Below, in pieces: positions 21,725 to 35,592 of a stretch of DNA of 64,000 nt. The notes beneath the pieces were generated by a model. It saw nothing but the letters and a program-made list of their open reading frames with translations. It did not search any database and was not told where the DNA came from. This DNA comes from Minisyncoccota bacterium (GTDB lineage Bacteria > Patescibacteriota > Microgenomatia > UBA1400 > UBA12028). The position numbers were made by a program, and so were the translations under genes. The stretch lies in the NCBI GenBank assembly GCA_003487265.1, contig DNEP01000001.1:24572-88571 (forward strand), written 5' to 3'. Numbering within the stretch: position 1 is the first letter of the stretch; every line of letters starts with the position of its first letter.

Positions 21725-24700
21725 TTACGGTGCGATCTCGAACCAATCGTACGTTGATTTTTTCAAGGAATCAGGAGCGTTCAACACCAGATCGGGTCGG
21801 ACAAAAAACACTTCCGCGGGAGAGTCGTTGTTTCCAATTCCACTCAAGTTTCGCTCAAGATTAAATCCTTGCCATCCCACAAAAGTTCCCGCACCAATGA
21901 ACTGCGTGTCACCCGAGCCGTCGGTATTGGTACCTGTTGAGATTGTTCCATCGGCAACATACACCCCTTGAACCATTGCCTCTGCAAGCGCGGTTTCTGC
22001 GTATGCTTCCATTTCAAGTTCGTCGGCACTCAACGGCTCCGCAAGTCCCAATGATGCATCAATGGAGATATCTCCACTCGCAACAATCATTAAGAAACCA
22101 CCCAGCTCTACCGTGATTTGGTTTTCGATCACAACATCTCCATCGACAACAAGAATGGCACGCATGGATGATGGAATGGTGAGATCTCCGTTTACGACAA
22201 TTGTATCTGAAGCGAAAAACGCATCCGCGTCTGCGTTGGCGTACGGTTGGGTAAACAAAGATGTATCCGAAAGTTCATGCGGAAGCGCTTGGTTTGTGAA
22301 ATCGTCTACGGGAACTGCGGGAAGATTGAGCATCTGTTTGAGATACGCATATCCCGTTTTTTCTGCACTTGTGGATAGGGTCGCATATTTTTCTGCATCT
22401 TTTTCATCTTCAGCACGAATCGAACCGTTCCCCAACGAAATATCGGAAAGCATCTCGCCGATTAGCGGGAATCCCGAGGTGTTGTCCCGTCCATACGTGG
22501 GATTTGGATTTCCATGGGCGTATTTTTGCATAAGCGTATACGAAGTGGGTGTGCGTAGGGGAATTGCTTGACCAATCGATCCATTTCCTCCTCGTGAGGG
22601 AAGCGCGCCCACCATCACGCTCCCACCAAAAACTTGAAACCACGCATCGGAAACACTCAAAACCGTATAATCTTGCGTGATTACATCGTCTGAAACAACC
22701 GAAATCGTTGGAGTCGTTTGAGGACAGACGAGTCCGTAGCCGGGCAAACCAAATATCGTGCCGTTTGTGATGCTAGGGCGGTATGTGGTGGCTTGATCTA
22801 ATCCTAAGGTTGGTACTTGCACACTATATCCCCCAAGCACATCTGCGGAATCGTTATATGATCCAAAATCTGTTGAAGAATATGAAATAGACGGGAGCGG
22901 ATCGGTAATTGGAGTACCCGGTGTACAGGTTGATGATTCGGTAATGGTTCCCTGAATTGTTGCGACACAAGAATCATTTTCTATTTGTGGGTGCTCGGTT
23001 GAACAAAAATGCGTTCCCGTACGCGTCCCTCCATCACAGACATCCGGCTCCCAATCGATGGTATCGGAACAGTACACAGCGTTGTCGTTTTCGGAACACG
23101 ACACATACCCCACACTCTCACAATCAACTGTTCCTCCATAGGCTTCATATGAACAAAACGGATTCCCCGAACACAACGGCTGGGGATCGGCTTCGTCGGT
23201 GTGAACCGAACAATGAAAATAATAATCTTCAGAAGAAACGATAAGATCATCTATTGAAGCGGTGCACGATTCTCCTGCGGATGCAGAACATTCATCAAGC
23301 TTGTAGACCGTTTCTCCAAATGCGTTCACTTTAAGAATGGTGTTCGTTTCGGATGTTGGAGGCGCGAGAAGATCGTCTCCATCTCGTTGCTCAGCAAAAA
23401 TTCGCACTATTGCGTTATTCAGCGACCCCCCTGTTCCCGTTGCCGAAACGGAAACCAATTCGTTTTGATCGGTCCCCGATAAAGTCGAAACCGTAATTGA
23501 ACAAGTGGAGTTGTCAACTACGGGCGGAGGAGTCGTGGACTGTTGACACGGTTGATACTGTGAAGAAGGAATAATCGTCCATTCTGCAGGCCACGCATCG
23601 GTTGGATTTGCCCGATATCGAGAAAGCACCGTAAGATTTCCCTGGTAAGTTATTGATGCGTCACCAATCACATGCATTCCTTGGACAGGATAGGGGACTC
23701 CTCCGTGAATATGAAAGTGTTGATCGTCGAACATTGCCAGTTCCGTTTGTGGATCCTCTCCACCCAAAGAAAGTTTGTACACCCCAGAAATTCCCATTAA
23801 TGCATCGGGGTCTGCGGGCCACGGGTTGTACCAATCTCCCGCACCATACGCACCAAATGCAAAAGCCGCTTGCAAGTTCCCATCGCTCCCTGGTCCCGCG
23901 GGTTCACGCTGAATCTTGAATTGATAATACCCATCAACTGGTGGAACAAAATACCCAATGTATGATGTGAGCGTCCACCCTCGGCACTCATCCATCGCAA
24001 AATACGGAATAGTGCTTGAAATGGGTTGAAACGGAGCGCCTGCCGCCCATCTTGTGTCAACATACGCAGAATCAGGAAGATATTCGTACGCAAACCGCAT
24101 CCATCCCGATGCGCTACTCAAGCTTCGATACACGCGCAGACCCGAGGTTGGTTCACCCGTAGGAACCGATCCATCTGCATTACACGCTGATGCGATTGGA
24201 CCAGAAGTTGAACACGATGAGGGTGGGGGTGGCGTTTCTCCACCTTCACCGCCACCTGGGAGCGTTGAACCGGGGCAACACCCGAGGAGTTGCCAGCGTT
24301 CAAAAGGTTCACCTGGAACATAGCTTTGTTCATCCCGCAACACATCGCAGTCTGAATATCCGTGAACGGTGCAGTCGCCAACACAACTGCCATCGTACCC
24401 TGCATTGAATAGATTATCGGACTCTGGCACACATGGGCAGGTAGTTTCACCCTTAAGAATCGGATCGTAACAAAGATCATCCGCTTGAGAACACCACCCT
24501 TTGCATTGACCAATATTCCACATACGAGTGGCAGAGGAATAATACTCACCCGATCCGCGCAACGTGCAGTAATTTGTCCCATCTAAGGTGTACGCATTGC
24601 ACGTCGAACTCTGAGAAATCGTCGTTTCTGCACATGCTTGTCCTCCTTCAGCGACCCGACAAGAAGAGACCACGGAAATTCCAGTCGTCGCATCTTGAGG

Positions 24701-24793
24701 ACAGGTGAGTCCATCACCACAGTACTGATCCGCACGAACCATCCCAACAGAACCAAAGCTCAAAAAACAAAAAAGGACAAGAATTTTTTTCAT
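21725..24793 (-). CDS. Large (1022 aa) Cys-rich secreted protein with a PA14-like segment, a candidate pilus-associated adhesin
   Basis: Signal peptide MKKILVLFCFLSFGSVGMVRA. More than 60 Cys in CxxC/CxC-rich modules. The segment LTSYIGYFVPPVDGYYQFKI...DDQHFHIHGG resembles the PA14 core (GYF.PP.tG.Y.F). It sits directly upstream of the minor-pilin block, where PilY1/PilC-type tip adhesins usually lie. Confidence 0.45.
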   Translation of the reverse strand: MKKILVLFCFLSFGSVGMVRADQYCGDGLTCPQDATTGISVVSSCRVAEGGQACAETTISQSSTCNAYTLDGTNYCTLRGSGEYYSSATRMWNIGQCKGWCSQADDLCYDPILKGETTCPCVPESDNLFNAGYDGSCVGDCTVHGYSDCDVLRDEQSYVPGEPFERWQLLGCCPGSTLPGGGEGGETPPPPSSCSTSGPIASACNADGSVPTGEPTSGLRVYRSLSSASGWMRFAYEYLPDSAYVDTRWAAGAPFQPISSTIPYFAMDECRGWTLTSYIGYFVPPVDGYYQFKIQREPAGPGSDGNLQAAFAFGAYGAGDWYNPWPADPDALMGISGVYKLSLGGEDPQTELAMFDDQHFHIHGGVPYPVQGMHVIGDASITYQGNLTVLSRYRANPTDAWPAEWTIIPSSQYQPCQQSTTPPPVVDNSTCSITVSTLSGTDQNELVSVSATGTGGSLNNAIVRIFAEQRDGDDLLAPPTSETNTILKVNAFGETVYKLDECSASAGESCTASIDDLIVSSEDYYFHCSVHTDEADPQPLCSGNPFCSYEAYGGTVDCESVGYVSCSENDNAVYCSDTIDWEPDVCDGGTRTGTHFCSTEHPQIENDSCVATIQGTITESSTCTPGTPITDPLPSISYSSTDFGSYNDSADVLGGYSVQVPTLGLDQATTYRPSITNGTIFGLPGYGLVCPQTTPTISVVSDDVITQDYTVLSVSDAWFQVFGGSVMVGALPSRGGNGSIGQAIPLRTPTSYTLMQKYAHGNPNPTYGRDNTSGFPLIGEMLSDISLGNGSIRAEDEKDAEKYATLSTSAEKTGYAYLKQMLNLPAVPVDDFTNQALPHELSDTSLFTQPYANADADAFFASDTIVVNGDLTIPSSMRAILVVDGDVVIENQITVELGGFLMIVASGDISIDASLGLAEPLSADELEMEAYAETALAEAMVQGVYVADGTISTGTNTDGSGDTQFIGAGTFVGWQGFNLERNLSGIGNNDSPAEVFFVRPDLVLNAPDSLKKSTYDWFEIAP

Positions 24794-24841
24794 GCACTCT
24801 CATTATGCAATGAGATGGAGTGAAGCACAATATTTCATTCG

Positions 24842-25408
24842 TTATCGTGATAGACGAATGGATAGTGCGGGAATAATCCGAGAAACTCCCTGCCTATACT
24901 GAACCCAATCGTTCGAAGAAGAAAACGTGGACGCGTACTGCAATAGATTGCAAAGACGCGTTCCATGTTGACATTCAAGTAAAATGTCTTTTTGCTGCAG
25001 TGACTGTACCGATCCAATATAGTCCACTTGAATTTGATCACCCTTTTTAAGAAACCGTTTGTATTCTTCCAACGTTTTTGGACGAACAAATGCATCTGAT
25101 TTCGAAACCAACGGAAGTGGATCAATCGAAAGAAGATCAAATGTACCAGATAACAACACACGCTCGGATCGTTTCTTGCCAAATTGATCCACATATCCAA
25201 CCTGCACACTCAACACGCCATTTTCTTCGAGAACATCCTCAACTTTTGCTTGAAATGGAGAAACTTGAACCGTTCCCCCAAAAAGTGTGTAAGTCTGATC
25301 AACTGGGGGAGACTGAGGATTGTTTTTGCGGAACAAAAAAAAGACAGCAACGACAGCTCCCAAAATGAGAACAGCTAAAAGAACGCGGAGGGATGTTAAT
25401 TTCTTCAT
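24842..25408 (-). CDS. Hypothetical membrane-anchored protein (188 aa)
   Basis: N-terminal TM/signal anchor (LLAVLILGAVVAVFFL) then a soluble domain. Located inside the pilus locus. Confidence 0.4.
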   Translation of the reverse strand: MKKLTSLRVLLAVLILGAVVAVFFLFRKNNPQSPPVDQTYTLFGGTVQVSPFQAKVEDVLEENGVLSVQVGYVDQFGKKRSERVLLSGTFDLLSIDPLPLVSKSDAFVRPKTLEEYKRFLKKGDQIQVDYIGSVQSLQQKDILLECQHGTRLCNLLQYASTFSSSNDWVQYRQGVSRIIPALSIRLSR

Positions 25409-25447
25409 TCAACTATAATATCACACAACTCATATCATTAAGTTCAG

Positions 25448-28120
25448 TTATGGTGCATTTGGCTCGATAAGAGTTGTAGATCCAATTAGCGCAACATCCT
25501 TTGATACTTGGATTGTGGGATACGCTCCAGAGTTAATGAACGCGAGAAATTGATTGTGAAACTCAGTATCTTGCACTTCTTGATATACACTCGTGACATA
25601 ATCTCTCGGAACTGTTGAAAAATGAACAAGCATGCTACCAATTAGATCTCCTGCTTTGAATAGACGTATATATTCTTCAACTACTTTCACGGTTGTTTGA
25701 TGATCTTTGTACTCTCCCGTTTCTGTCTGAATATCTTCAAGAAATAACATTGAACCACCTGTTGCACTCATCGTCAAGTCTGGCATTAATCCATCAATCC
25801 AATACGCGTATAGTTGTTTACCATATTGTGTGACCATCAACCTCTCAAGAACGCGAACCGTCTGTTCTTTATCTTCAAGATTCTGAAATGTTTTCTCAAC
25901 CACTCGCCATTGACCCGTAAATACCCCCATAAACTCATCAGTAGTCAGTGTAAAAAGATCTGGTGCTCTTCCATACGTTCTCACCTTGTGATATTTCAGC
26001 ATCGTCTTGTTTGGCGTCGACTCATTCCCAGGGAACCATCCAGTCTTCCACAGTTCCTCCACACTCGGCACGGCGTGGCGCCACATGGTTTGGATATCAT
26101 CCTTGTCAAACCAATCCAACTTACGCCATTCACTCGTTTCGGGATCAAGAATCGCCATGTGCATATCGTTCATGGTGTTGGTGAGCACCGTCGCCCGCGT
26201 AAGTTGACCATTTAAGGACACATCGGCTTCATGCACAAGATAAGTCTGCGTGAGATCAAGATTGAACTCAATCGCGAATTGATACGCTTCGGCGGTCCAC
26301 CACCCATTTTGCATCAACACGTACTCAATCTCGCCACCTTTTTTTTCAAGCGCAACGCGCCCGTCGCTTGTTTGGACAGGCGAATAGTCTTCGAGTTTAA
26401 TCTTCACGTCGCGCGAAAACAACGCGCCATCTTCAGATAACGTTCCTTTCGCATCGCTCATCCACGATGGATTTTCAATTGAAGATGCTCGCAAATTCAA
26501 ACTAAATCGCGCTTCACCAGCACCAACAAACTCCAACCAAGGAATGTCTTGATACTCGATCTTTGAACCCATTTCTTTCGCCTGCTCAAGCGGAATCTGA
26601 ATACCCCAACCCTCACCCGTCTTCGGATCGACATACTCAACATACGCGCGCCCAGAAGAACCAACAGGAGCGGGACCTTCAACGCGATTTTCAACAAGAA
26701 CAGCACCCAAACTTTCGAGTTGCAGTCGCCATTCAGATCCAATATTCAACAGTTTCCACTCCACAAACACCCCGTTCTGTGTCCCCACGAACTGTTCTTT
26801 TCCATCTGGGGTCACCGCGAGAAACTGGCTTCCTTTTTTGGCAATATACACTTCTTTTTCTTCCTGCGAGTCCGAAAGCGAAATGATGTGTGATTGTGGT
26901 CGGGTAAGTTGAATTCCACTCCCAATCAAAGTCTCCATCCCATAATACGTGATAACCCACGTGTTAATGCCATCCATTTCCTTCAACACGGCAAGAGGGG
27001 AATCTTGATCGGAATCTTCAAAATGGATTTCTGTGTCGTTCTCAGTAAAAACATACTGCGCAACTGAAGAGAATCCTAAATCATTCGCCAATGATTTCGC
27101 CGTTTCTGCAAACGTTTGCGGAACTTCCGTAGGCGCTGGCTGTGGCAGAGCCTCGACCGTCACTTCGGGAGTGGTAATTGGTTGAAGTGCTCCCGCTACG
27201 GCATCAATGGGGAGAAAGAGAGAAAGAAGTGAAAAACCTGTTGCAGAAGTCATCTTCGCCATAAGCTCAGTATATTGTTGATTGGAAACTTTCTTTGGAG
27301 CTCCAAACAGTACGCTTTCAACTTCACCTGTAAATACACCATTTTCATCGACAGGATAATAGAAAAATTCTGCAACGATGGCATATCCATCCTTTTCTGG
27401 AGTGATATAGATTGCAAAATGCGTATTTGGTTTTGTGACTTCCTTGCCACTTACAATAACAGTTTTTTCAGTTGAAAATAAAAATATATCCGTTTCCCCC
27501 TCATGCGTTTTTCTAATCTGATCCACAACTGCGGTTTGCGTCGGAACGGCAGTGGGTGCTGTCGTTGGTGTGGATGGAGTATTCGAAGAAGATTCCTCAG
27601 TTGTTACGTCTTTTAAATCCTCAAGGAATAACTCAGAAAACTCTGGTGTTTGAGTTGGGAGAGGAGGTGGGAACAATGTCACCTCTTGTTCATTTCGATA
27701 TGTCAAACTCGCGGGAATATATACAGCCGATTCACCATCATATAAAAGTGGATAGACAATTGTGGCATTATCCGTAGCAATAACAATGATTTGTAGTTGA
27801 TATCTAGAAAAATCGAGAGTTTTATGCTCTCGTTTAAACTCTTCGTAGTAAGAAGCAACGCGAGTCGCAACATCTTTGGCAACAACGTTCCAAGACACGA
27901 TCGAGTTTGGAAATTCAACAGACAATAACTGTTGTTCAATTTCCTCCGCATCTGAAGTCGCAGGAAAAATAAACTCTTCTTTTTGTGTTTGATCTTGAGA
28001 TTGTGTTTCGATTTGCGCTTCCTGAGTTGAAAGCGCCTGAGATGCACCCGAACACGCTTCGAGTGCGACTGCTCCAGCTGTGAAAGCAATCCCCACTCTA
28101 TACAGGTTTCTCTCGCTCAT
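25448..28120 (-). CDS. Large (890 aa) putative lipoprotein / secreted protein
   Basis: N-terminal signal with the lipobox-like VALEACSG. Low-complexity Thr/Pro/Glu-rich linker regions. No enzymatic motif recognised. Confidence 0.4.
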   Translation of the reverse strand: MSERNLYRVGIAFTAGAVALEACSGASQALSTQEAQIETQSQDQTQKEEFIFPATSDAEEIEQQLLSVEFPNSIVSWNVVAKDVATRVASYYEEFKREHKTLDFSRYQLQIIVIATDNATIVYPLLYDGESAVYIPASLTYRNEQEVTLFPPPLPTQTPEFSELFLEDLKDVTTEESSSNTPSTPTTAPTAVPTQTAVVDQIRKTHEGETDIFLFSTEKTVIVSGKEVTKPNTHFAIYITPEKDGYAIVAEFFYYPVDENGVFTGEVESVLFGAPKKVSNQQYTELMAKMTSATGFSLLSLFLPIDAVAGALQPITTPEVTVEALPQPAPTEVPQTFAETAKSLANDLGFSSVAQYVFTENDTEIHFEDSDQDSPLAVLKEMDGINTWVITYYGMETLIGSGIQLTRPQSHIISLSDSQEEKEVYIAKKGSQFLAVTPDGKEQFVGTQNGVFVEWKLLNIGSEWRLQLESLGAVLVENRVEGPAPVGSSGRAYVEYVDPKTGEGWGIQIPLEQAKEMGSKIEYQDIPWLEFVGAGEARFSLNLRASSIENPSWMSDAKGTLSEDGALFSRDVKIKLEDYSPVQTSDGRVALEKKGGEIEYVLMQNGWWTAEAYQFAIEFNLDLTQTYLVHEADVSLNGQLTRATVLTNTMNDMHMAILDPETSEWRKLDWFDKDDIQTMWRHAVPSVEELWKTGWFPGNESTPNKTMLKYHKVRTYGRAPDLFTLTTDEFMGVFTGQWRVVEKTFQNLEDKEQTVRVLERLMVTQYGKQLYAYWIDGLMPDLTMSATGGSMLFLEDIQTETGEYKDHQTTVKVVEEYIRLFKAGDLIGSMLVHFSTVPRDYVTSVYQEVQDTEFHNQFLAFINSGAYPTIQVSKDVALIGSTTLIEPNAP

Positions 28121-28132
28121 ACGTGTATTGTA

Positions 28133-28933
28133 TCACAAAAGACCAAAATACCACGAAAGAAGCGGTTCACCCCAAATCAAAGAGAGAACTGACCCAAGAA
28201 TCAAAAACGGGGCAAACGGTACAACCTGCCCAAACTTCTTTTTTCGCGCAACGAGCAGGGCAACCGCCACCACCGCCCCAATAATAAATGCGAGATACAC
28301 CGCCAAAATCGTCTGCGGAAACCCCAAAATCAAACCCAATGGAAACATAAACTTCACATCTCCAAGTCCCATCCCGCGCCCCTTCGTTATACGAACCAGC
28401 GCATAAAAAAGGAGAGAAAATCCGAACGCGGATGCAATCGCCATCCAATAGTCATATGGTTGGAAAATCCCCGCGATAAGGAGGGCGGAACGGTACATCA
28501 GCGCCAACACAGAAAGCACCACTACCAGCACATCAGGAATGACATATTTAAACAAATCGATGAAAAAAACCAAAATAAAAATAATCCCCACGACCAACCA
28601 AAAGGCCGGCTGAAGATAGGTAAACGGCGCGCGGGCGAGCTGGAAAAAGGTAAACCCAATCAAGTACCACCACACAAACATCACACCAGTAATCGCTTCG
28701 ATCAGCGGATAACTCGCATCGATGCGCTTGTGGCAGGTGCGACACCGCCCCCGAAGCGCCAAAAACGACAACAACGGAATGTTTTCATACCAAGCAAGTT
28801 GACGCTTACAATGATCGCAGTAGGACCGCCCATACACGAACGATTCTCCTCGAGTCATGCGATAGATCACCACATTCAGAAACGACCCAATTGCCGAACC
28901 AAACGCAAACAAAAACAGCATCATCACAATCAT
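28133..28933 (-). CDS. pilD: Prepilin peptidase (A24 family) PilD
   Basis: N-terminal tetra-Cys zinc motif (CDHCKRQ...CRTCHKRI) and about 8 TM helices with conserved Asp regions (ALMYRSALL...GLGDVKF). 4-nt overlap with the upstream gene. Confidence 0.85.
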   Translation of the reverse strand: MIVMMLFLFAFGSAIGSFLNVVIYRMTRGESFVYGRSYCDHCKRQLAWYENIPLLSFLALRGRCRTCHKRIDASYPLIEAITGVMFVWWYLIGFTFFQLARAPFTYLQPAFWLVVGIIFILVFFIDLFKYVIPDVLVVVLSVLALMYRSALLIAGIFQPYDYWMAIASAFGFSLLFYALVRITKGRGMGLGDVKFMFPLGLILGFPQTILAVYLAFIIGAVVAVALLVARKKKFGQVVPFAPFLILGSVLSLIWGEPLLSWYFGLL

Positions 28934-29613
28934 AGAAAGATGTTAATCCCAAACACGATTTCGATAATCTGGCCGATCCAATAGGAAAGGAAGAGGAGTA
29001 AGAACCCAACCACCGCCCAGGTGATGCGGTTTTTTCCCGCTTCTTGCGCCTTTTGGTCCGTCGCCCCGAGGAGCATCTCGAAACCTCCCCAGACGATCAT
29101 TACGAACAGGGTAAATCCCGCAAATGCAAACAGGAATGGAAACGAGTAGGCGATGATTTGACCAAGCGTGAGGGTAGAGGGATCCACTCCAACATTTTGC
29201 GAACCAATTTTGTTGAGCTGGATCGCGTTGTTGATTGTGTCTCGCATTTTCGCGGGGTTGAGGGGGAGAGGGGGTGGGTTTGCTCCAGTGGGAATTAATG
29301 CTGGAGTCAACACGCAATCTTCAAAACAAATTTGACCATCAAAACTTGGTGCGCAACACGCAACTTCATCGGGTTCATAATCTGCATGACATGTCGTCAA
29401 TTGGGGTGACACGCATAATCCACACTCAATCGCACAAGAAACGATCTTATCATTTGAAACAGATGAAGAATATGAATATAGTTCTCCAAAATCAGTCTTT
29501 TGATAACACTCTGTCCCTTCTTTACAAGAATATACAGGTGCAGCCTGCGCAACGCCTCCCCACACAAAAACACTTGTGAAAAACAAAGTGAGAAAAAGAA
29601 AGGTTTTTTTCAT
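28930..29613 (-). CDS. Cys-rich secreted protein with a C-terminal two-helix membrane hairpin (VirB2/TrbC-pilin-like architecture)
   Basis: Signal peptide MKKTFLFLTLFFTSVFVWGGVAQA and a Cys-rich extracellular domain with about 14 Cys. The C-terminus has hydrophobic helix 1 (YSFPFLFAFAGFTLFVMIVWGGFEMLLGA), a short charged loop (TDQKAQEAGKNR) and hydrophobic helix 2 (ITWAVVGFLLLFLSYWIGQIIEIVFGI). Confidence 0.4.
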   Translation of the reverse strand: MKKTFLFLTLFFTSVFVWGGVAQAAPVYSCKEGTECYQKTDFGELYSYSSSVSNDKIVSCAIECGLCVSPQLTTCHADYEPDEVACCAPSFDGQICFEDCVLTPALIPTGANPPPLPLNPAKMRDTINNAIQLNKIGSQNVGVDPSTLTLGQIIAYSFPFLFAFAGFTLFVMIVWGGFEMLLGATDQKAQEAGKNRITWAVVGFLLLFLSYWIGQIIEIVFGINIFL

Positions 29614-29614
29614 C

Positions 29615-30502
29615 TTAAAATCCTGGTAACTTCAAAATGTCTACGCCGATTGTTCGTAAAATGACCATCGAAAAAATGATGAATAAAAGACCACTTATCG
29701 CCGCGGTGATGTTGTTCTTTGCTTCATCAACCTTTTTTGGTTCTCCTTGACTTGTGGTAAGTTGAAAAGCTGCAGCAAGGATGGTGAGCAACACCACACC
29801 ACCGCCAATACTCAGACTTAAGCGCACAATCGACACAATGATTCCCTCAGGGGAACTCGGGATACACCCTATCGCGGTCCAGATGCCTTTCTCAAAAGTG
29901 TTCCCAGCACATGTCGTATTTAATGGATCCCCAGTCACACATTGACAACACACCGCGCGATCATCGGCATTTGAAATTTGTTTACAAGGATTAAAAGTAC
30001 TAGAAAAAATTGCAGGGTACTGACAAATTTTTTGGAAATTATATTCAACACATTTTTGATCAGGATCAATACAATCATCTTTCTTTCCATCATTGTCTAT
30101 ATCGGTACATGCTTGACCTAAATATCCTTCATAACTCGAGAGAGATGAATTTTCTAAAGAAGGATAACATATATGTTTTTCAATTCTTGATGGGGGACTA
30201 TTAGGAATTGGAATATACGCACTTAAAACAACAGAGCACCCTTCGATTGTTAAACATGAACTTGTATTCAAATTTTCCCGAGGGTTATCGCACTGAAAAA
30301 GTTTTGAACTACATTGATCTAAACCCGAACCAGCAGGGTTAACCGATTCTACAGAATACCCAGAATCTACGTGATCAGTACAACCATCAAAAGTTGTTGC
30401 TGCAGCCCGAACTTCGGCTCTAGGCAAAAAAGCCAAAAAGACAAAAAGAAAAACCACAAATACGGCCAAAAATCCCGATAATACTCGTTGTTTTTCCTTC
30501 AC
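29615..30502 (-). CDS. Cys-rich secreted protein, paralog of the 28930-29613 gene, with the same C-terminal two-helix hairpin
   Basis: Same architecture: signal-like VLSGFLAVFVVFLFVFLAFL, a Cys-rich domain, and a C-terminal helix / short charged loop (TTSQGEPKKVDEAKNN) / helix. Probable GTG start at 30502, immediately preceded by TATAAT; the ORF-track ATG at 30610 is an alternative. Confidence 0.4.
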   Translation of the reverse strand: MKEKQRVLSGFLAVFVVFLFVFLAFLPRAEVRAAATTFDGCTDHVDSGYSVESVNPAGSGLDQCSSKLFQCDNPRENLNTSSCLTIEGCSVVLSAYIPIPNSPPSRIEKHICYPSLENSSLSSYEGYLGQACTDIDNDGKKDDCIDPDQKCVEYNFQKICQYPAIFSSTFNPCKQISNADDRAVCCQCVTGDPLNTTCAGNTFEKGIWTAIGCIPSSPEGIIVSIVRLSLSIGGGVVLLTILAAAFQLTTSQGEPKKVDEAKNNITAAISGLLFIIFSMVILRTIGVDILKLPGF

Positions 30503-30656
30503 GTCTTCAATTATACACACTCCTCGTGGTGTTGTGCAGTGCGAAAATGCAAAACCAACGTGGGCTTTCAGTTTCAATATCACGCATCCAAGAACGGCCT
30601 CTAAACCCAAAGACCGCCCCTTTCGGGGCGGTCTGCGTTTTCAACATAAGCAGGTT

Positions 30657-31322
30657 TTACGGAAGACAGAGGAGTTCGTTTACATAGACGTCTTCGATTC
30701 CATAGTTCCCATCACCATCTCCATTCGGACAAGCGATTTCTTTGATTCCCGTTTCGTATCCACTGTTTACACAGTTTCGAATTGCTTCTCGCTTGAATGC
30801 TCCAGAAGATGGCATGAAACATGCGTACATCGTTGCGTCGGAGCCCTCAGGTTTGTAGGCAAAAATCATGTAGTTTTCCTGATTTTCCAATCGAGAAATA
30901 TATCCTGATTTCACCTCACCAGAAGTACTCAACAAATCAAGCCATGCCGATTCGGGGGAAAGACGACATGCGCCCTCACCAAAAAGTGCAGTCCCATACC
31001 CATCATCCATCGTTACTCCACAAAACTCACCAGCGGTGTCTGGCATAACAACCGTAGGTTGTTGATTATCTTCCGTAGGTGCGGTTTCTCCATCAGTCGA
31101 GATTTCATTCCACGGATACTTTTCCGCACTTGCGTAGTAGCGATCAACCGCATTAATCAACTGCGCGGCATCGGATCGCATACGCGTATCTCTTCCTTTA
31201 TTGATTTGTTCAATTGGGTTAATAGATGACAACACCGCCGTTGCGAGTGCGCCAATAACCGCGATCACGACGAGCAGTTCGATCATCGTAAAACCTGCGG
31301 TTTTCATAAATGACTTCAGCAT
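30657..31322 (-). CDS. pilA: Type IV major pilin PilA-like
   Basis: MLKSFMKTAGFTMIELLVVIAVIGALATAVL is a class III signal peptide with Gly at -1, Phe at +1 and Glu at +5. GGAG lies 7 nt upstream of this ATG. Directly downstream of pilC. Confidence 0.8.
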   Translation of the reverse strand: MLKSFMKTAGFTMIELLVVIAVIGALATAVLSSINPIEQINKGRDTRMRSDAAQLINAVDRYYASAEKYPWNEISTDGETAPTEDNQQPTVVMPDTAGEFCGVTMDDGYGTALFGEGACRLSPESAWLDLLSTSGEVKSGYISRLENQENYMIFAYKPEGSDATMYACFMPSSGAFKREAIRNCVNSGYETGIKEIACPNGDGDGNYGIEDVYVNELLCLP

Positions 31323-31381
31323 TTGTACTCCTTCACTTTTATTCAAACGACCTGATGGTCTGTATACGCATTGTGGTCATA

Positions 31382-32584
31382 TTAGAACTGACTTGTCAAG
31401 TTGTAGATCGGCATAATAATTGCAAGAATCAAGAACATCACGCCAACACCCAAGATCACCATAATAATTGGCTCAAGAAGAGTGGAAAGATTTTTCACCA
31501 TGTGTTCACTTTCGGACTCGAAATACGCCGAAACTTTTAACAGCACTTCGTCCAATTTTCCTGTTTCTTCACCAACCGCGCTCATTTGCGAAACGAGTGG
31601 CGGAAACAACTCGGATTTGGTAAGCGACTCGGAAAGCGGGACCCCTTTTTCGACATCGGTGGCCACTTCGTGCAACGCGTCGCGAAACAGCACATTGTCC
31701 ATCGACTCCGCAACAATTTGCAACGTCGAAAGCAAAGACACACCCGCCCCCAATAACAACGAGATTGTTCGAGTAAACTCGGTCATCATCGACAACACGC
31801 GAATTCTTCCAAAAACTGGAATCTTCAACAACAGTTTGTCGACGATAAACTCGCCGGTGGGGGTCGTTTTCCATAATCGAAAAATGTACACTCCACCAAT
31901 CACCGCTCCCACAAAAAAATACCAGTTTGTCGCCATAAAGTTTGAGGTGCTGATTAATATTTTTGTTGGCAACGGAAGCTCGGCATTAAATCCTTCGTAC
32001 ATTGTGGTGAGTTTTGGAATAACCATCACCATCATTAAAAACGCGACAATAATCATTCCCACAAACACAATGGCTGGATAAATCAGCGCGCCTTTTGTTT
32101 TCGCACGAAACTCGAACGATTTTTCCATGTTATCCGCAAGTCGGTGTAACACCTGATCCAACATTCCCGCGGCCTCACCCGAACGAACCAACGCAATATA
32201 CACTTTAGAAAAAATCCCTCGGTGTTTTTCGAGCGCGTCACCAAAAGAAGTTCCCCCTTCAACATCATGCGATAAACTCAAAACCACACGCTGCATCGCG
32301 GGACGCGATTGTTGAACCAAAATGCCAAACGATTCGGTGAGCGTAAGACCAGAAGTGATCATGGTAGAAAGTTGGCGCGTAAAGTTCACCAAGTCAGCGG
32401 CCTTCACGCGATCCATTGAAAGTGAAAGATCGTTAAGGATTGAGTTCGAGGATTGTGACAACGAAATAATGAACAAGTTCTTTTCTTTAAGCAGTGACGC
32501 TGCCTGATGTGGAGAGTTCGCCTCAATACGACCTTTAATCGTTTGCGCTTGATCTGTTCGAACCACGTATTTATAAAATGGCAT
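31382..32584 (-). CDS. pilC: Type IV pilus inner-membrane platform protein PilC (GspF family)
   Basis: 400 aa with two repeated GspF domains and TM segments (ALIYPAIVFVGMIIVAFLMMVMVIPKL, PIIMVILGVGVMFLILAIIMPIY). Confidence 0.8.
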   Translation of the reverse strand: MPFYKYVVRTDQAQTIKGRIEANSPHQAASLLKEKNLFIISLSQSSNSILNDLSLSMDRVKAADLVNFTRQLSTMITSGLTLTESFGILVQQSRPAMQRVVLSLSHDVEGGTSFGDALEKHRGIFSKVYIALVRSGEAAGMLDQVLHRLADNMEKSFEFRAKTKGALIYPAIVFVGMIIVAFLMMVMVIPKLTTMYEGFNAELPLPTKILISTSNFMATNWYFFVGAVIGGVYIFRLWKTTPTGEFIVDKLLLKIPVFGRIRVLSMMTEFTRTISLLLGAGVSLLSTLQIVAESMDNVLFRDALHEVATDVEKGVPLSESLTKSELFPPLVSQMSAVGEETGKLDEVLLKVSAYFESESEHMVKNLSTLLEPIIMVILGVGVMFLILAIIMPIYNLTSQF

Positions 32585-32593
32585 TTCGTCCTT

Positions 32594-33712
32594 TTATCCT
32601 TGATTTTCTTGCGTTGCAGATGTTGACACTGGATCCACACGAACCGGCTCCGTGGTCGACCGAACCGTTATCTTTTCGAGATCGTCTGGTCGGAGCGCGT
32701 ATTTTTCCGCCTCTTCATACGAAATCTTTCCCTCCATGACCAACTGAGCGAGAGAAGATTCAATGGTAATCATGCCATCACCCGCAGACGTTTGAATCAC
32801 GTTATCAAGTTGGAATGTTTTTCCATCGCGAATGAGATTGCGCACCGCGCCATTCGCCATCAACACCTCGACCGCAGCACACCGTTTTCCGTCTAACGAA
32901 GGCACGAGTCGCTGTGATAACACGGATTGAATTGACATCGCCAACTGCGATCGGATCTGCGCTTGTTGTGCCGCGGGGAACACATCAATAATACGATCAA
33001 TCGTTTGAGAAGCGCTGTTTGTATGCAACGTCGCGAACACAAGGTGTCCCGTCTCTGCTACGGTGAGCGCGGCCGCAATCGTTTCGTAATCGCGCATCTC
33101 TCCGACCAGTACCACGTCTGGGTCTTCGCGGAGCGCCGATCGAAGCGCGATCTCCCAAGAATGGGTATCCGCATGCAACTCACGTTGAGAAATAATCGAG
33201 TGGATCGGTTTGTGCACAAACTCAATTGGATCCTCAATTGTCAGAATGTGTTCACTGCGCGTTTTATTTATTTGATCAATAATAGCGGCAAGCGTTGAGG
33301 ATTTCCCGTGCCCGGTGGGACCGGTCACCAATACTAATCCTTGTTTCATCGTAGAAAATTGATTGCACACTTCTGGCATTCCCAAATCTTCAAGAGATTT
33401 GATTTTTGAGGGGATCAACCGGAGCGCCGCGGTCCATTCGCCCTGCGTGTGATACACATTGACACGAAATCGACCAAACTCGCCGAATTGATATCCAAAA
33501 TCAACTTCTTTGTTCACATTCAACAACTCGCGCTGTTCGGGGGCGAGAAGGGGAGTGATTGCTTCGCGAATCGTTTGCGAAGTTAATGGTTCGGTGTTGG
33601 GAATCGCACCAAGACGACCATGCACACGCAACATTGGGGGGATCCCCAAAAGCAAGTGCAGATCTGATGCATCTTGTTGAACAACTTGTGAAAGCATTGA
33701 TTGAATGTCCAT
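32594..33712 (-). CDS. pilT: Twitching-motility retraction ATPase PilT
   Basis: Walker A GPTGHGKSST, the Asp box TIEDPIEF, the PilT-type His box, and the AIRNLIREGK-like segment (AVRNLIRDGK). Confidence 0.85.
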   Translation of the reverse strand: MDIQSMLSQVVQQDASDLHLLLGIPPMLRVHGRLGAIPNTEPLTSQTIREAITPLLAPEQRELLNVNKEVDFGYQFGEFGRFRVNVYHTQGEWTAALRLIPSKIKSLEDLGMPEVCNQFSTMKQGLVLVTGPTGHGKSSTLAAIIDQINKTRSEHILTIEDPIEFVHKPIHSIISQRELHADTHSWEIALRSALREDPDVVLVGEMRDYETIAAALTVAETGHLVFATLHTNSASQTIDRIIDVFPAAQQAQIRSQLAMSIQSVLSQRLVPSLDGKRCAAVEVLMANGAVRNLIRDGKTFQLDNVIQTSAGDGMITIESSLAQLVMEGKISYEEAEKYALRPDDLEKITVRSTTEPVRVDPVSTSATQENQG

Positions 33713-33765: not shown

Positions 33766-35592
33766 TTATGTTTGTGCAACGCGCAGCACTTCCTCAATTG
33801 TTGTAATTCCTTCAAGCACCTTGAGATATCCATCTTGTTTCATTAAAATCATGCCATCGAGCACCGCTTGTTTTTCAATCTCGCTCGCGGGTTTTCGTTC
33901 GAGAATCAACTTCCCAATTTTTTCGGTCACCAACAGTACCTCATAAATTCCGACGCGCCCCTTGTACCCCGTACCGCCGCAAGTTTCACATCCTTTTCCC
34001 TTAAATATTTTGATCTCGGTTTTTTTATTTGTTTGCATCCATCCATCGAGGAGCTCACCAAGATATGATTTTATGTCATCTTTCACCGGCTGTTCTGGAT
34101 CGTACTGTTCTGCGCACACCGAACACACTCTGCGCAACACACGTTGCGCCATTACCACCGTCATCGAGCTGGCGAGCAAGAACGGCTCCGCTTCCATATC
34201 AAGAAGACGGGGAAGTGCGCCCGCGGCGGAGTTTGTGTGAAGTGTTGAAAAGACCAAGTGACCTGTGAGCGATGCTTGAATCGCAAGCTCCGCCGTTTCT
34301 TTATCGCGAATCTCTCCAACCATGATAATGTTTGGATCTTGTCGCAAAAACGCGCGCAAACCCGACGCAAAGGTGAGACCTGCTTGTGGGTTCACTTGGA
34401 CCTGATTAATTCCGAGCATCTGATACTCGACAGGATCTTCAAGTGTGACAATATTTAATTTCGGCGTGTTGATTTTATTCAGCAACGAGTACAGCGTTGT
34501 CGTCTTTCCTGAACCCGTGGGCCCCGTGACAAGAACGATTCCGTGCGGAACATGCGCGGCCGCTTCGAGATTCTTCAACGCACTCCCACGCAGTCCCAAT
34601 TCGGGAAGTGTGGGTACTCCACCCGTTTTCTTTAACAACCGCATCACGATTTTTTCACCATGAACGGTTGGAAGAGTAGAAACACGAAGGTCAACTTCTT
34701 CTTTGTCCATGCGAAACGTGAAACGGCCATCTTGCGGAATACGTTTTTCGTCAATCTTGAGATCGGATAAAATCTTGATGCGAGAAACCACCGCTTCGTG
34801 CACTGATTTTGGTAAGATGAGTTTTTCCTGCAAAATACCATCAATACGATAGCGCACGCGCGTTTTTTCCTCAAGCGGTTCGATATGCACATCCGATGCT
34901 CGCGCCTTCATCGCAAAGGTCACAACCGTTTCCACAATTTTCGCGATTGGAGCCTCACGAATGACATTCGCAAGCGATTTTGCATCAAAGGTTCGAAGCT
35001 TTACTTGTTCATCCGAGTTTGAGGTGTCCTTGATCGCAGCGGAAACCTCCGCCGACAAACTTTGGGCGTATCGTTCGGCAATTGCCTGCTCAATATCGGA
35101 AAGGGTGGAGTAGTGCGCGGTAACACGCATTCCCGTTTTTTTCTCGATGAAATCAATCGCACCCAAATCGAGTGGATTCACCATCGCGAGTTCGAGCGTA
35201 CGCGCTTCCTGATCGATGCTAAATGGAATCAAACGATACCGACGCGCCAAACCTTCGGGAATCTGCGAAAGCGCCTCGGGGGAACTTCCCACCGCCAACA
35301 CATCGATGTAAGGAACGGTATAGAATTCCGATCTCGCCTTTGCCAAGGTGACTTCATCAACAATCTTTTTTTGTTCAATAATCGAGTCAATCGGCTCACC
35401 CGTATTGACGTGCATTAAACTCACTTGATCAAACTGCGCTTGAGAAATGGATTGTTGCTTGAGCAAAACATCAAGAACGGTTCCGCTTTGAATCGTGGAT
35501 GCAACTTGCACACCTTGACTCACTTGCGGTGGTATTTGTGATTGCGTTTGTGGTTGTGTTTGCGCCGAAACATCGCCTTGGGCAGGTGTCAT
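33766..35592 (-). CDS. pilB: Type IV pilus assembly ATPase PilB (GspE family)
   Basis: N-terminal GspII_E-like domain, Walker A GPTGSGKTTT, the Asp box TLEDPVEY, and a tetra-Cys zinc motif (CSVCAEQY...CETCGGTGYKGRVGIYEVL). Confidence 0.85.
   Translation of the reverse strand: MTPAQGDVSAQTQPQTQSQIPPQVSQGVQVASTIQSGTVLDVLLKQQSISQAQFDQVSLMHVNTGEPIDSIIEQKKIVDEVTLAKARSEFYTVPYIDVLAVGSSPEALSQIPEGLARRYRLIPFSIDQEARTLELAMVNPLDLGAIDFIEKKTGMRVTAHYSTLSDIEQAIAERYAQSLSAEVSAAIKDTSNSDEQVKLRTFDAKSLANVIREAPIAKIVETVVTFAMKARASDVHIEPLEEKTRVRYRIDGILQEKLILPKSVHEAVVSRIKILSDLKIDEKRIPQDGRFTFRMDKEEVDLRVSTLPTVHGEKIVMRLLKKTGGVPTLPELGLRGSALKNLEAAAHVPHGIVLVTGPTGSGKTTTLYSLLNKINTPKLNIVTLEDPVEYQMLGINQVQVNPQAGLTFASGLRAFLRQDPNIIMVGEIRDKETAELAIQASLTGHLVFSTLHTNSAAGALPRLLDMEAEPFLLASSMTVVMAQRVLRRVCSVCAEQYDPEQPVKDDIKSYLGELLDGWMQTNKKTEIKIFKGKGCETCGGTGYKGRVGIYEVLLVTEKIGKLILERKPASEIEKQAVLDGMILMKQDGYLKVLEGITTIEEVLRVAQT

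What the first reader, a model, noticed from the sequence alone, without database searches (positions are those of the whole stretch)
28930..30610. Tandem paralogous Cys-rich secreted proteins with a VirB2/TrbC-pilin-like C-terminal helical hairpin, wedged between pilA and pilD
Two adjacent genes (227 aa and about 296-331 aa) share one architecture. Each has a signal peptide, a Cys-rich extracellular domain, and a C-terminal pair of long hydrophobic helices separated by a short charged loop:
- gene 1: ...FAFAGFTLFVMIVWGGFEMLLGA-TDQKAQEAGKNR-ITWAVVGFLLLFLSYWIGQIIEI
- gene 2: ...IVRLSLSIGGGVVLLTILAAAFQL-TTSQGEPKKVDEAKNN-ITAAISGLLFIIFSMVIL

This helix-loop-helix is the defining architecture of conjugative/type IV secretion pilins (VirB2/TrbC), not of type IV pilus pilins. 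Yet the genes sit inside a type IV pilus operon, and the second overlaps pilD by 4 nt.

They could be a second filament subunit type, membrane-embedded anchors, or something new. The upstream paralog appears to have its own promoter-like TATAAT directly before a GTG start.
Basis: partly seen in the sequence, partly recalled or inferred. Interest (0 to 1): 0.7.

Follow-up and report, generated by a model that had tools for sequence, protein, structure and literature searches.

The report
T4SS-type pilin pair in pilus operon
Two adjacent genes in a groundwater Microgenomates (CPR) genome encode secreted, cysteine-rich proteins that end in the two-helix membrane hairpin of the already described Patescibacterial VirB2-like "T4SS pilin" family (Pfam PF18895). 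This conserved gene pair normally sits next to type IV secretion genes and has been moved into the type IV pilus operon only in this species, so it is an ordinary family member in an unusual place.

Summary
Two minus-strand genes lie between pilA and pilD: geneU (30502..29615, 295 aa from the GTG start) and geneD (29613..28930, 227 aa). Each has a Sec-type signal peptide, a Cys-rich ectodomain (16 and 10 Cys) and a C-terminal helix-loop-helix.

The hairpins match Pfam PF18895 (T4SS_pilin). GeneD scores 32.5 bits, above the 26.6 cut-off; geneU scores 25.4-25.7, just below it. This family, and its tandem low-identity arrays in Microgenomatia, were described in 2023-2025 papers.

The two genes are ancient, distinct subfamilies, related only in the C-terminal ~125 aa (21% identity). 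GeneU followed by geneD is a tightly coupled pair in about 78 of 80 species surveyed.

In those species the pair sits beside SpoIID (71/80), VirB6/TrbL-like genes (26/80) and sometimes VirB4. It is never within 10 kb of pilB/T/C/D (0/80). The three closest pilus loci have pilA directly followed by pilD.

The pilus-operon position is therefore a species-specific relocation behind the ancestral pilD promoter, reproduced in at least 24 independent contigs. No T4SS gene lies in the window, but a published table lists VirB4 as present in this genome.

Verdict: a new member of a known kind, of low to moderate interest. A functional link to the type IV pilus is not supported by conservation.

The parts
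30657..31346 (-). pilA-like major type IV pilin (prepilin motif KTAG|FTMIELLVV). It is the upstream neighbour and context, not part of the pair.
   Evidence: PF07963 N_methyl, E 2e-5, and TIGR02532.
30611..30634 (-). Intrinsic-terminator-like hairpin after pilA (10-bp stem with 8 G-C pairs, then a T-rich tail).
   Evidence: Equivalent hairpins follow pilA in relatives L089-L091.
30510..30538 (-). Promoter-like TGCACA-17-TATAAT. The -10 box ends 7 nt before the GTG of geneU. Probably the ancestral pilD promoter, giving a very short leader or a leaderless mRNA.
   Evidence: 10 of 12 matches. A -10-like box lies 8-12 nt before the pilD ATG in L089-L091. Function is inferred, not shown.
29615..30502 (-). 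geneU: 295-aa 'long' T4SS_pilin-family protein. It has a signal peptide (aa 1-34), a variable Cys-rich ectodomain and a conserved Cys-containing pre-hairpin module (aa ~150-217, motif GIWTAIGCIP).
   Evidence: PF18895 25.4-25.7 bits against a cut-off of 26.6. 261 homologues, many named 'pilin'. Family HMM 211.6 bits. AlphaFold pLDDT is 81-93 per 10-residue block over aa 171-290.
29636..29851 (-). geneU C-terminal helix-loop-helix (aa 218-289), with loop TTSQGEPKKVDEAKNN.
   Evidence: PF18895 aligns to aa 219-284.
28930..29613 (-). geneD: 227-aa 'short-type' T4SS_pilin-family protein with a signal peptide at aa 1-24. Its stop overlaps the pilD start by 4 nt.
   Evidence: PF18895 32.5 bits, above the 26.6 cut-off. 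Family HMM 148 bits. Homologues are 131-163 aa and match only the C-terminal part.
29164..29541 (-). geneD N-terminal part of the mature protein (aa 25-150), carrying the Cys-rich insertion (10 Cys between aa 30 and 100). No credible relatives were found.
   Evidence: phmmer against 1.84 billion representatives found only the protein itself and two repeat-driven hits. AlphaFold pLDDT is below 50.
28951..29166 (-). geneD C-terminal helix-loop-helix (aa 150-221), with loop GATDQKAQEAGKNR.
   Evidence: PF18895 aligns to aa 160-211.
28133..28933 (-). pilD prepilin peptidase. Its ATG overlaps geneD's stop (ATGA), so translational coupling is inferred.
   Evidence: PF06750 and PF01478. The ATGA overlap is read from the sequence.

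Best explanation
GeneU and geneD are the 'long' and 'short' members of a conserved two-gene module of VirB2-like pilin-family proteins (Pfam PF18895, T4SS_pilin). This family is typical of Patescibacteria, and especially of Microgenomatia.

Proposed mechanism, with shown and inferred steps marked:

1. Each protein is exported by Sec and cut by signal peptidase I, not by PilD. This is inferred from n-h-c signal peptides and the absence of a prepilin motif.
2. The C-terminal helix-loop-helix inserts into the membrane with the short Lys/Arg-containing loop on the cytoplasmic side. The disulfide-bonded ectodomain stays outside. This is inferred from topology and from the even Cys counts, all upstream of helix 1.
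3. As for VirB2/TraA pilins, the membrane pool is probably extracted and polymerised by the genome's T4SS (VirB4, VirB6-like). The product would be a filament or conduit with the N-terminal ectodomains on its surface, serving contact with a host cell. This rests on family membership, on the T4SS neighbourhood of the orthologous pairs in other species, and on the published essentiality of such pilin arrays in Southlakia epibionticum. No such filament has yet been observed for any member.
4. The tight geneU-geneD spacing, conserved across species, suggests the two are made together and act together. This is inference.

In this species alone, the module has been moved from its usual SpoIID/T4SS neighbourhood into the gap between the ancestral pilD promoter and pilD. 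It is therefore probably co-transcribed with pilD and the genes downstream of it. The gene arrangement is shown; co-transcription is inferred. This is a lineage-specific rearrangement, not evidence that the proteins are parts of the type IV pilus.
For: - Family membership: PF18895 hits in both proteins. 121/123 and 37/37 family members also hit PF18895.
- Link to canonical pilins: 44/123 members give weak PF04956 TrbC/VirB2 hits, best E 8.3e-5, and 4 hit T4SS_CagC.
- Distinct subfamilies: the geneU HMM scores geneU 211.6 bits and geneD 32.9 bits. The geneD HMM scores geneD 148 and geneU 56.7.
- Conserved pair: geneU followed by geneD in 78 of the loci analysed. About 60 of 78 have a gap of -4 to +10 nt.
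- Usual neighbourhood: SpoIID 71/80, an 865-aa protein 28/80, TrbL/VirB6-like 26/80, VirB4 4/80.
- No pilus link elsewhere: pilB/T/C/D 0/80. The closest pilus loci have pilA-pilD adjacent, with the same terminator and -10 box.
- The arrangement is real: it is seen in at least 24 independent contigs.
- T4SS in the genome: the source genome GCA_001001575.1 is listed as VirB4-positive (PMC12102498 Table S1).
- Literature: 441 VirB2-like arrays of 2-11 genes, mean identity 25%, abundant in Microgenomatia (PMC12102498). The pilin array is essential in S. epibionticum (PMC10633639; PMC12857230).
Against: - GeneU scores about 1 bit below the Pfam gathering threshold. Neither window protein hits PF04956 at E <= 1.
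- Profile searches against PDB sequences find no VirB2/TraA.
- No T4SS gene lies in the 64-kb window.
- In the nearest relatives of the pair (L001, L003, L066) the module is also detached from VirB6/VirB4-like genes, so dependence on the T4SS is not demonstrated.
- Large ectodomains (about 125-185 aa) on a VirB2-type subunit are atypical for solved conjugative pili.
- No Patescibacterial VirB2-like filament has been observed.
Confidence: 0.65

Rival explanations
1. The proteins are membrane-anchored surface proteins or adhesins that never polymerise. In this view the PF18895 hairpin serves in Patescibacteria as a two-helix membrane anchor, displaying variable, disulfide-rich or Ig-like ectodomains on the cell surface.
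For: - Ectodomains are large and hypervariable. GeneD's N-terminal domain is an orphan.
- GeneD-type lengths range from 55 to 543 aa.
- Some geneU relatives carry Big_1, Big_3_5 or Invasin_D3 Ig-like domains.
- In several relatives the pair lies away from VirB4/VirB6 genes.
- The fold is a generic hairpin.
- No filament has been seen for this family.
Against: - The family shows weak but recurrent similarity to TrbC/VirB2 and CagC.
- There is frequent synteny with VirB6-like and VirB4 genes.
- The small members of about 100 mature residues are VirB2-sized.
- The arrays are essential together with the T4SS in S. epibionticum (PMC10633639).
Confidence: 0.25
2. The pair has become a working part of the type IV pilus machine in this lineage. 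It could be a second filament subunit, a membrane platform or anchor, or an adhesin delivered by the pilus.
For: - The pair lies between pilA and pilD and is coupled to pilD by a 4-nt overlap.
- It sits behind the promoter-like element that precedes pilD in relatives.
- The arrangement is stable across at least 24 contigs of this species.
- In L001 and L066 the pair lies about 6-7 kb from the pilM-O end of the pilus locus.
Against: - The position is not conserved: 0 of 80 loci have pilB/T/C/D nearby.
- The three closest pilus loci lack any PF18895 gene.
- There is no prepilin motif, so the proteins are not PilD substrates.
- Type IV pili are complete without such proteins in all relatives.
Confidence: 0.07
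3. The hairpins are chance hydrophobic segments of unrelated secreted or lipoprotein-like proteins, and the Pfam hits are hydrophobicity artefacts.
For: - Pfam scores are modest (25-33 bits).
- Other membrane-protein families give weak hits to family members (RseC_MucC in 46/123).
Against: - Specific conserved motifs are shared with hundreds of homologues (WTAIGCIP...IPGFG; FVMIVWGGFEML...SYWIGQI).
- Family HMM scores are 148-212 bits.
- The pair order and spacing are conserved in about 78 species.
- Neither protein has a lipobox.
Confidence: 0.02

Closest known systems
Patescibacterial VirB2-like pilin arrays (Pfam PF18895 T4SS_pilin): Quinonero-Coronel et al. 2025, PMC12102498; the S. epibionticum essential pilin array, Wang et al. 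2023, PMC10633639
   Same: - HMM family, Sec signal peptide and C-terminal two-helix hairpin.
- Tandem genes with about 20-25% identity, in a Microgenomatia host.
- Orthologous pairs in relatives lie next to VirB6-like or VirB4 genes.
- The source genome carries VirB4.
   Different: - Here the pair lies inside a type IV pilus operon, away from any T4SS gene.
- GeneD carries an orphan 10-Cys insertion.
- GeneU belongs to a 'long' subfamily with a conserved Cys-containing module before the hairpin.
- The papers read here do not mention the fixed long-then-short pair next to SpoIID ('SpoIID' occurs 0 times in PMC12102498).
Canonical conjugative pilins VirB2/TrbC/TraA (PF04956; T-pilus 8EXH, F-pilus; archaeal Ced/conjugation pilins such as 8DFU)
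   Same: - Signal peptide followed by two hydrophobic helices joined by a short charged loop.
- Weak PF04956 hits in 44 of 123 family members.
   Different: - The two window proteins give no PF04956 hit.
- They carry ectodomains of about 125-185 aa in front of the hairpin.
- The host is a monoderm.
- Polymerisation, lipid binding and cyclisation are untested.
Mycoplasma ICE pilin-like conjugal transfer protein (NCBIfam NF045849, Mbov_0395 family)
   Same: Sub-threshold HMM similarity across the hairpin (31.3 and 18.2 bits against a cut-off of 40). It is also a monoderm T4SS (MPF-FATA-like) context.
   Different: The scores are below the cut-off, the locus is chromosomal with no ICE context, and the window proteins have extra ectodomains.
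Type IV pilins (PilA and minor pilins, which are PilD substrates)
   Same: Genomic position only. They are also secreted filament-subunit-like proteins.
   Different: GeneU and geneD have no G|FxxxE N-methylation motif and no single N-terminal hydrophobic helix. The hairpin is C-terminal, and they are not found in the pilus loci of relatives.
Pam pili of CPR bacteria (bioRxiv 10.64898/2026.03.03.709456)
   Same: CPR-specific surface filament proteins found in Saccharimonadia and Microgenomatia, with paired cysteines.
   Different: Pam pilins are Ig-like subunits assembled by donor-strand exchange with chaperone-like partners. GeneU and geneD instead end in a helical membrane hairpin. That paper does not mention T4SS.

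Membership tests
PF18895 T4SS_pilin (Patescibacterial VirB2-like pilins) | Match to the family HMM at or above Pfam's gathering score (26.6 bits) | tested here: met
   GeneD scores 32.5 bits, E 9.4e-8. GeneU scores 25.4-25.7 bits, E 1.2-1.5e-5, which is 1 bit short. The collection's precomputed annotation still lists PF18895.6 for it (P0010), and 37/37 of its homologues match.
PF18895 T4SS_pilin (Patescibacterial VirB2-like pilins) | Cleavable Sec signal peptide plus two C-terminal hydrophobic helices separated by a short charged loop | tested here: met
   Hydropathy segments and AlphaFold helices. Signal peptides were read from the sequence. No dedicated signal-peptide predictor was available.
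PF18895 T4SS_pilin (Patescibacterial VirB2-like pilins) | Occurrence in tandem arrays of divergent copies | tested here: met
   The two copies are adjacent and share 21% identity over 127 aa. Relatives carry 2-12 pilin-like ORFs per 20 kb. The literature reports arrays of 2-11 genes with mean identity 25%.
PF18895 T4SS_pilin (Patescibacterial VirB2-like pilins) | Genomic association with T4SS genes (virB4, virB6/trbL, prgI) | tested here: not met
   No T4SS-neighbour family is detected in the 64-kb window. Orthologous pairs in other species do show the association: TrbL-like 26/80, VirB4 4/80. The genome is listed as VirB4-positive. In the literature only 1135 of 1948 assemblies have the pilin near virB4, so this feature is not obligatory.
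PF18895 T4SS_pilin (Patescibacterial VirB2-like pilins) | Assembly into an extracellular filament by the T4SS | not testable with these tools
   No experimental structure or filament has been reported for any member of this family.
PF04956 TrbC/VirB2 conjugative pilins | Match to the TrbC/VirB2 HMM | tested here: not met
   Neither window protein hits at E <= 1. 44 of 123 relatives hit weakly, best E 8.3e-5. PDB profile searches found no VirB2/TraA.
PF04956 TrbC/VirB2 conjugative pilins | VirB2-like fold (helical hairpin superposable on solved conjugative pilins) | tested here: inconclusive
Type IV pilins (PilD substrates) | Class III signal peptide with the G|F/M-xxx-E N-methylation motif (PF07963/TIGR02532) | tested here: not met
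   Neither geneU nor geneD gives an N_methyl hit. PilA and five minor pilins in the same window do.
Type IV pilus locus component | Conserved presence in the type IV pilus loci of relatives | tested here: not met
   0 of 80 loci carrying the pair have pilB/T/C/D within 10 kb. All three closest pilD loci have pilA directly followed by pilD and no PF18895 gene.

The most novel reading that the evidence does not exclude
The geneU-geneD module is an autonomous two-subunit surface device that does not strictly need neighbouring T4SS genes. It travels as a cassette: beside SpoIID in most genomes, beside tyrS/uppS in L001 and L066, and behind the pilD promoter here. In this lineage it would have been wired into the type IV pilus regulon so that pilus-mediated host capture and VirB2-like contact or conduit formation are expressed as one programme. 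There might even be physical cooperation between the two machines.
Probability: 0.07. Interest if true: 0.6.

Novelty: new member of a known kind. Interest (0 to 1): 0.25.

Why it matters
VirB2-like pilins in a monoderm T4SS are one of the notable oddities of Patescibacteria. They are essential for epibiotic growth in the one species tested, yet no filament has been seen.

This locus adds little to that question. It does supply three modest points:

- The 'arrays' in Microgenomatia contain a fixed, tightly coupled long-then-short pair of distinct subfamilies, which hints at a heteromeric unit.
- That pair almost always sits divergently next to SpoIID, a possible stand-in for the missing VirB1 cell-wall enzyme.
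- The pair can move as a cassette, here into a type IV pilus operon behind the pilD promoter. This would give natural co-expression of the two host-contact systems.

None of these changes the classification of the proteins.

Tried and rejected
- **PDB sequence searches.** Profiles of both families found no conjugative pilin, only light-harvesting and rhodopsin noise.
- **Foldseek against PDB.** The geneU model gave nothing significant; all hits were generic helical hairpins.
- **afdb50.** The library was not available.
- **The search for related loci.** The full-length geneU alignment failed because it had no conserved stretch. A 90-aa hairpin alignment worked.
- **T4SS remnant downstream of pilD.** I tested whether the 890-, 188- and 1022-aa genes are diverged versions of the 865-, 281- and 982-aa or TrbL-like genes that follow the pair elsewhere. 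HMM and hhalign searches were both negative (probability <= 0.5%). Rejected.
- **Shared Cys-rich domain.** I tested whether the Cys-rich domains of geneU, geneD and the 1022-aa protein are related. They are not.
- **GeneD N-terminal domain.** A search of 1.84 billion representatives found only two repeat-driven, non-credible hits.
- **Misassembly.** Rejected: the same gene order occurs in at least 24 independently assembled contigs.
- **Pam pili.** This CPR donor-strand-exchange pilus has a different fold and assembly logic.
- **The 331-aa TTG start for geneU.** Rejected in favour of GTG 30502, because the longer form overlaps the pilA terminator and its N-terminus is not signal-peptide-like.
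Full report
**What is there**

The window comes from a Microgenomates (CPR/Patescibacteria) groundwater genome. GeneD is identical to UX04_C0003G0045 of Microgenomates group bacterium GW2011_GWF2_45_18.

A long type IV pilus locus lies on the minus strand:

- pilB 35592..33766, pilT 33712..32594, pilC 32584..31382
- a pilA-like pilin, 31346..30657
- the two genes of the finding
- pilD 28933..28133
- three large genes without Pfam domains (890, 188 and 1022 aa)
- five N_methyl minor pilins, a PilX-like gene and pilM, followed by two further genes with no Pfam match

The flanks are housekeeping genes: gyrB, gyrA, holB, ppa, recG, tyrS, rnc and nusB.

**Check of the observation**

GeneD runs from ATG 29613 to 28930 (227 aa). 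GeneU has a maximal ORF from TTG 30610 (331 aa). That form would run through a strong terminator-like hairpin after pilA (30634-30611; 10-bp stem, 8 G-C pairs).

The GTG at 30502 gives 295 aa with a proper signal peptide, KEKQR followed by a hydrophobic core and VRA|AA. One independent annotation uses this start. A TGCACA-17-TATAAT match ends 7 nt before this GTG.

GeneU's stop is 1 nt from geneD's ATG. GeneD's stop overlaps the pilD ATG (ATGA).

- The signal peptides are followed by ectodomains with 16 and 10 Cys. All Cys lie before the first hairpin helix. Cys content is 5.4% and 4.4%, against a window median of 0.8%.
- Each has two long C-terminal helices. In geneD they span aa 150-182 and 187-221, and pLDDT over the hairpin is about 77-87. 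In geneU they span aa 218-250 and 255-289, and pLDDT is above 90 over most of the hairpin.

The two proteins resemble each other only across the last ~125 residues (21% identity, E 0.009). The ectodomains are unrelated to each other.

**What the proteins are**

Both hairpins match Pfam PF18895 (T4SS_pilin). GeneD scores 32.5 bits, above the 26.6-bit cut-off. GeneU scores 25.4-25.7, just below it. Both give sub-threshold hits to NCBIfam NF045849, the Mycoplasma ICE pilin-like conjugal transfer protein. Neither hits TrbC/VirB2 PF04956 at E <= 1, and neither carries the type IV prepilin motif.

At family level the link to canonical conjugative pilins is visible. Of 123 geneD-type relatives, 121 hit PF18895. 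Of these relatives, 44 also hit PF04956 weakly (best E 8.3e-5) and 4 hit the Helicobacter VirB2 homologue family T4SS_CagC. All 37 geneU-type relatives hit PF18895.

**Two old subfamilies that travel as a pair**

GeneU has 261 homologues at E <= 0.001, among the candidates the word index retrieved. They are mostly about 400 aa. They share a conserved C-terminal region (GIWTAIGCIPT...hairpin...IPGFG) preceded by conserved cysteines, and many are named 'pilin' by NCBI.

GeneD's homologues are short (131-163 aa) and share FVMIVWGGFEML...SYWIGQI. HMMs built from each group separate the two window proteins cleanly: 211.6 against 32.9 bits, and 148 against 56.7 bits.

I surveyed 80 species-representative genomes that encode a geneU-type hairpin. 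GeneU is followed by geneD on the same strand in essentially all of them, giving 78 analysable pairs among the loci analysed. In about 60 pairs the gap between the genes is -4 to +10 nt. The tandem is therefore an ancient, probably translationally coupled module, not a recent duplication.

GeneD-type lengths vary widely, from 55 to 543 aa. The N-terminal region of this geneD (aa 25-150), which carries all ten cysteines, has no credible relative among 1.84 billion representative proteins. Some geneU relatives carry Ig-like domains in the variable part.

**Where the pair normally lives**

Counts within 10 kb of the pair in the survey:

| Neighbour | Loci out of 80 |
|---|---|
| SpoIID, usually divergent and directly upstream | 71 |
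| 865-aa protein | 28 |
| TrbL/VirB6-like protein | 26 |
| VirB4-like ATPase (three of the four also with PrgI-like and TraC-like genes) | 4 |
| pilB, pilT, pilC or pilD | 0 |

Many loci hold further pilin-like ORFs, up to 12 per 20 kb.

Only L001 and L066 place the pair near pilus genes. There it sits beside tyrS, on the far side of the same tyrS-recG-nusB-rnc-rpsP block that borders the pilus locus in the window.

I also looked from the pilus side. The three closest PilD relatives (53-56% identity to the window's PilD) have the same chromosomal synteny: gyrB-holB-pilB-pilT-pilC-pilA-pilD-minor pilins-pilM, then the KH-domain gene, rpsP, rnc and nusB as far as each locus extends. In each, pilA is directly followed by pilD across a 100-140-nt spacer. 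None has a PF18895 gene, and none has the 890/188/1022-aa genes.

That spacer contains a terminator hairpin and a -10-like box 8-12 nt before the pilD ATG. This is the same layout as upstream of geneU in the window. The pair was therefore inserted between the ancestral pilD promoter and pilD.

The arrangement is not an assembly artefact. It recurs in at least 24 independently assembled contigs from JGI, ENA, Logan and a second NCBI MAG.

The window contains no T4SS-neighbour gene and no further pilin-like ORF. The source assembly GCA_001001575.1 is nevertheless listed as VirB4-positive in Table S1 of PMC12102498.

**Comparison with the literature**

- Quinonero-Coronel et al. 2025 (PMC12102498) searched 3,035 Patescibacteria genomes with PF04956 and PF18895. 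They report VirB2-like pilins in 1,948 VirB4-positive assemblies, with the pilin near virB4 in only 1,135. They found 441 arrays of 2-11 tandem pilin genes, with mean identity 25%, especially in Microgenomatia and Saccharimonadia.
- Wang et al. 2023 (PMC10633639) showed that the T4SS and its pilin array are essential in Southlakia epibionticum.
- A 2025 review (PMC12857230) highlights these as the only pilin-bearing T4SSs of monoderms, and notes that a pilus is still only a possibility.

The protein family, its VirB2-like interpretation and its tandem organisation are therefore already known.

**Most likely mechanism**

1. The proteins are exported by Sec and cleaved by signal peptidase I.
2. 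The hairpin inserts into the membrane with the Lys/Arg-bearing loop inside and the disulfide-bonded ectodomain outside.
3. By analogy with VirB2/TraA, the distant T4SS extracts and polymerises the subunits into a filament or conduit that displays the ectodomains for host contact.
4. The conserved coupling suggests that the two subunits act together.

Family membership and topology are shown or directly readable. Polymerisation and dependence on the T4SS are inferred.

The main rival is a non-polymerising membrane anchor for variable surface domains. A role inside the type IV pilus is unlikely, because the position is unique to this species and the proteins lack prepilin features. What the relocation probably does achieve is co-expression with pilD and the downstream pilus genes.

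**Verdict**

This is a correct and careful observation of a known family. The VirB2-like reading is supported at family level. The implied link to the type IV pilus, and the suggestion of novelty, are not supported. It is a new member of a known kind in a lineage-specific genomic position.

Noticed in passing
window 21725-28120 (- strand): Three large genes sit between pilD and the minor pilins: 890 aa (lipoprotein-like N-terminus), 188 aa, and 1022 aa (secreted, 35 Cys). The three closest pilus loci lack them and go straight from pilD to the minor pilins. No homologue occurs in any fetched locus, they have no Pfam domain, and hhalign finds no relation to the T4SS-neighbour families. This is a second lineage-specific insertion in the pilus operon.
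   Followed up: partly
window 26795-27268 (aa 285-442 of the 890-aa protein): An internal segment weakly resembles PilA aa 8-170 (24% identity, pairwise E 3e-4). It includes a degenerate prepilin-like 'TSATGFSLLSLFLPIDAVAGAL'. It may be a pilin-derived module embedded in a large protein, or chance.
   Followed up: partly
loci L009-L088 (e.g. L006:8161-9858, L008:8086-9852): A SpoIID-domain gene lies divergently and directly upstream of the long-then-short pilin pair in 71 of 80 surveyed Microgenomatia genomes. It may be the cell-wall-remodelling partner that replaces the VirB1 reported as missing from most of these systems. 'SpoIID' does not occur in the main T4SS survey paper.
   Followed up: partly
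window 30503-30656; L089:7903-8000; L090:7889-8000; L091:7864-8000: The spacer after pilA holds a terminator hairpin followed by a -10-like box only 7-12 nt before the next start codon. This layout is conserved across genera. It suggests attenuated read-through from pilA plus a very short-leader or leaderless transcript for the next gene (here starting with GTG).
   Followed up: partly
loci L001, L003, L066: In the relatives whose pair is closest to the window's, the module is flanked by uppS and mevalonate-pathway genes. In L001 and L066 tyrS replaces SpoIID on the upstream side. The two-gene module therefore moves as a cassette within chromosomes.
   Followed up: partly
loci L025, L027, L043, L056, L065 and others: Some relatives carry up to 12 pilin-like ORFs within 20 kb. 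Some geneU-type relatives have Ig-like domains (Big_1, Big_3_5, Invasin_D3) in the variable N-terminal part, which suggests adhesin-like ectodomains.
   Followed up: no
window 39608-42430 (+): GyrA is 940 aa, and its DNA_topoisoIV domain is matched in two separate stretches starting at residue 98. It may carry an N-terminal extension or an insertion.
   Followed up: no
window 1379-6355 (-): A 1658-aa ORF whose only recognisable domain is an N-terminal M48 peptidase segment (aa 97-177). It sits divergently next to tyrS, at the position the pilin pair occupies in L001 and L066.
   Followed up: no
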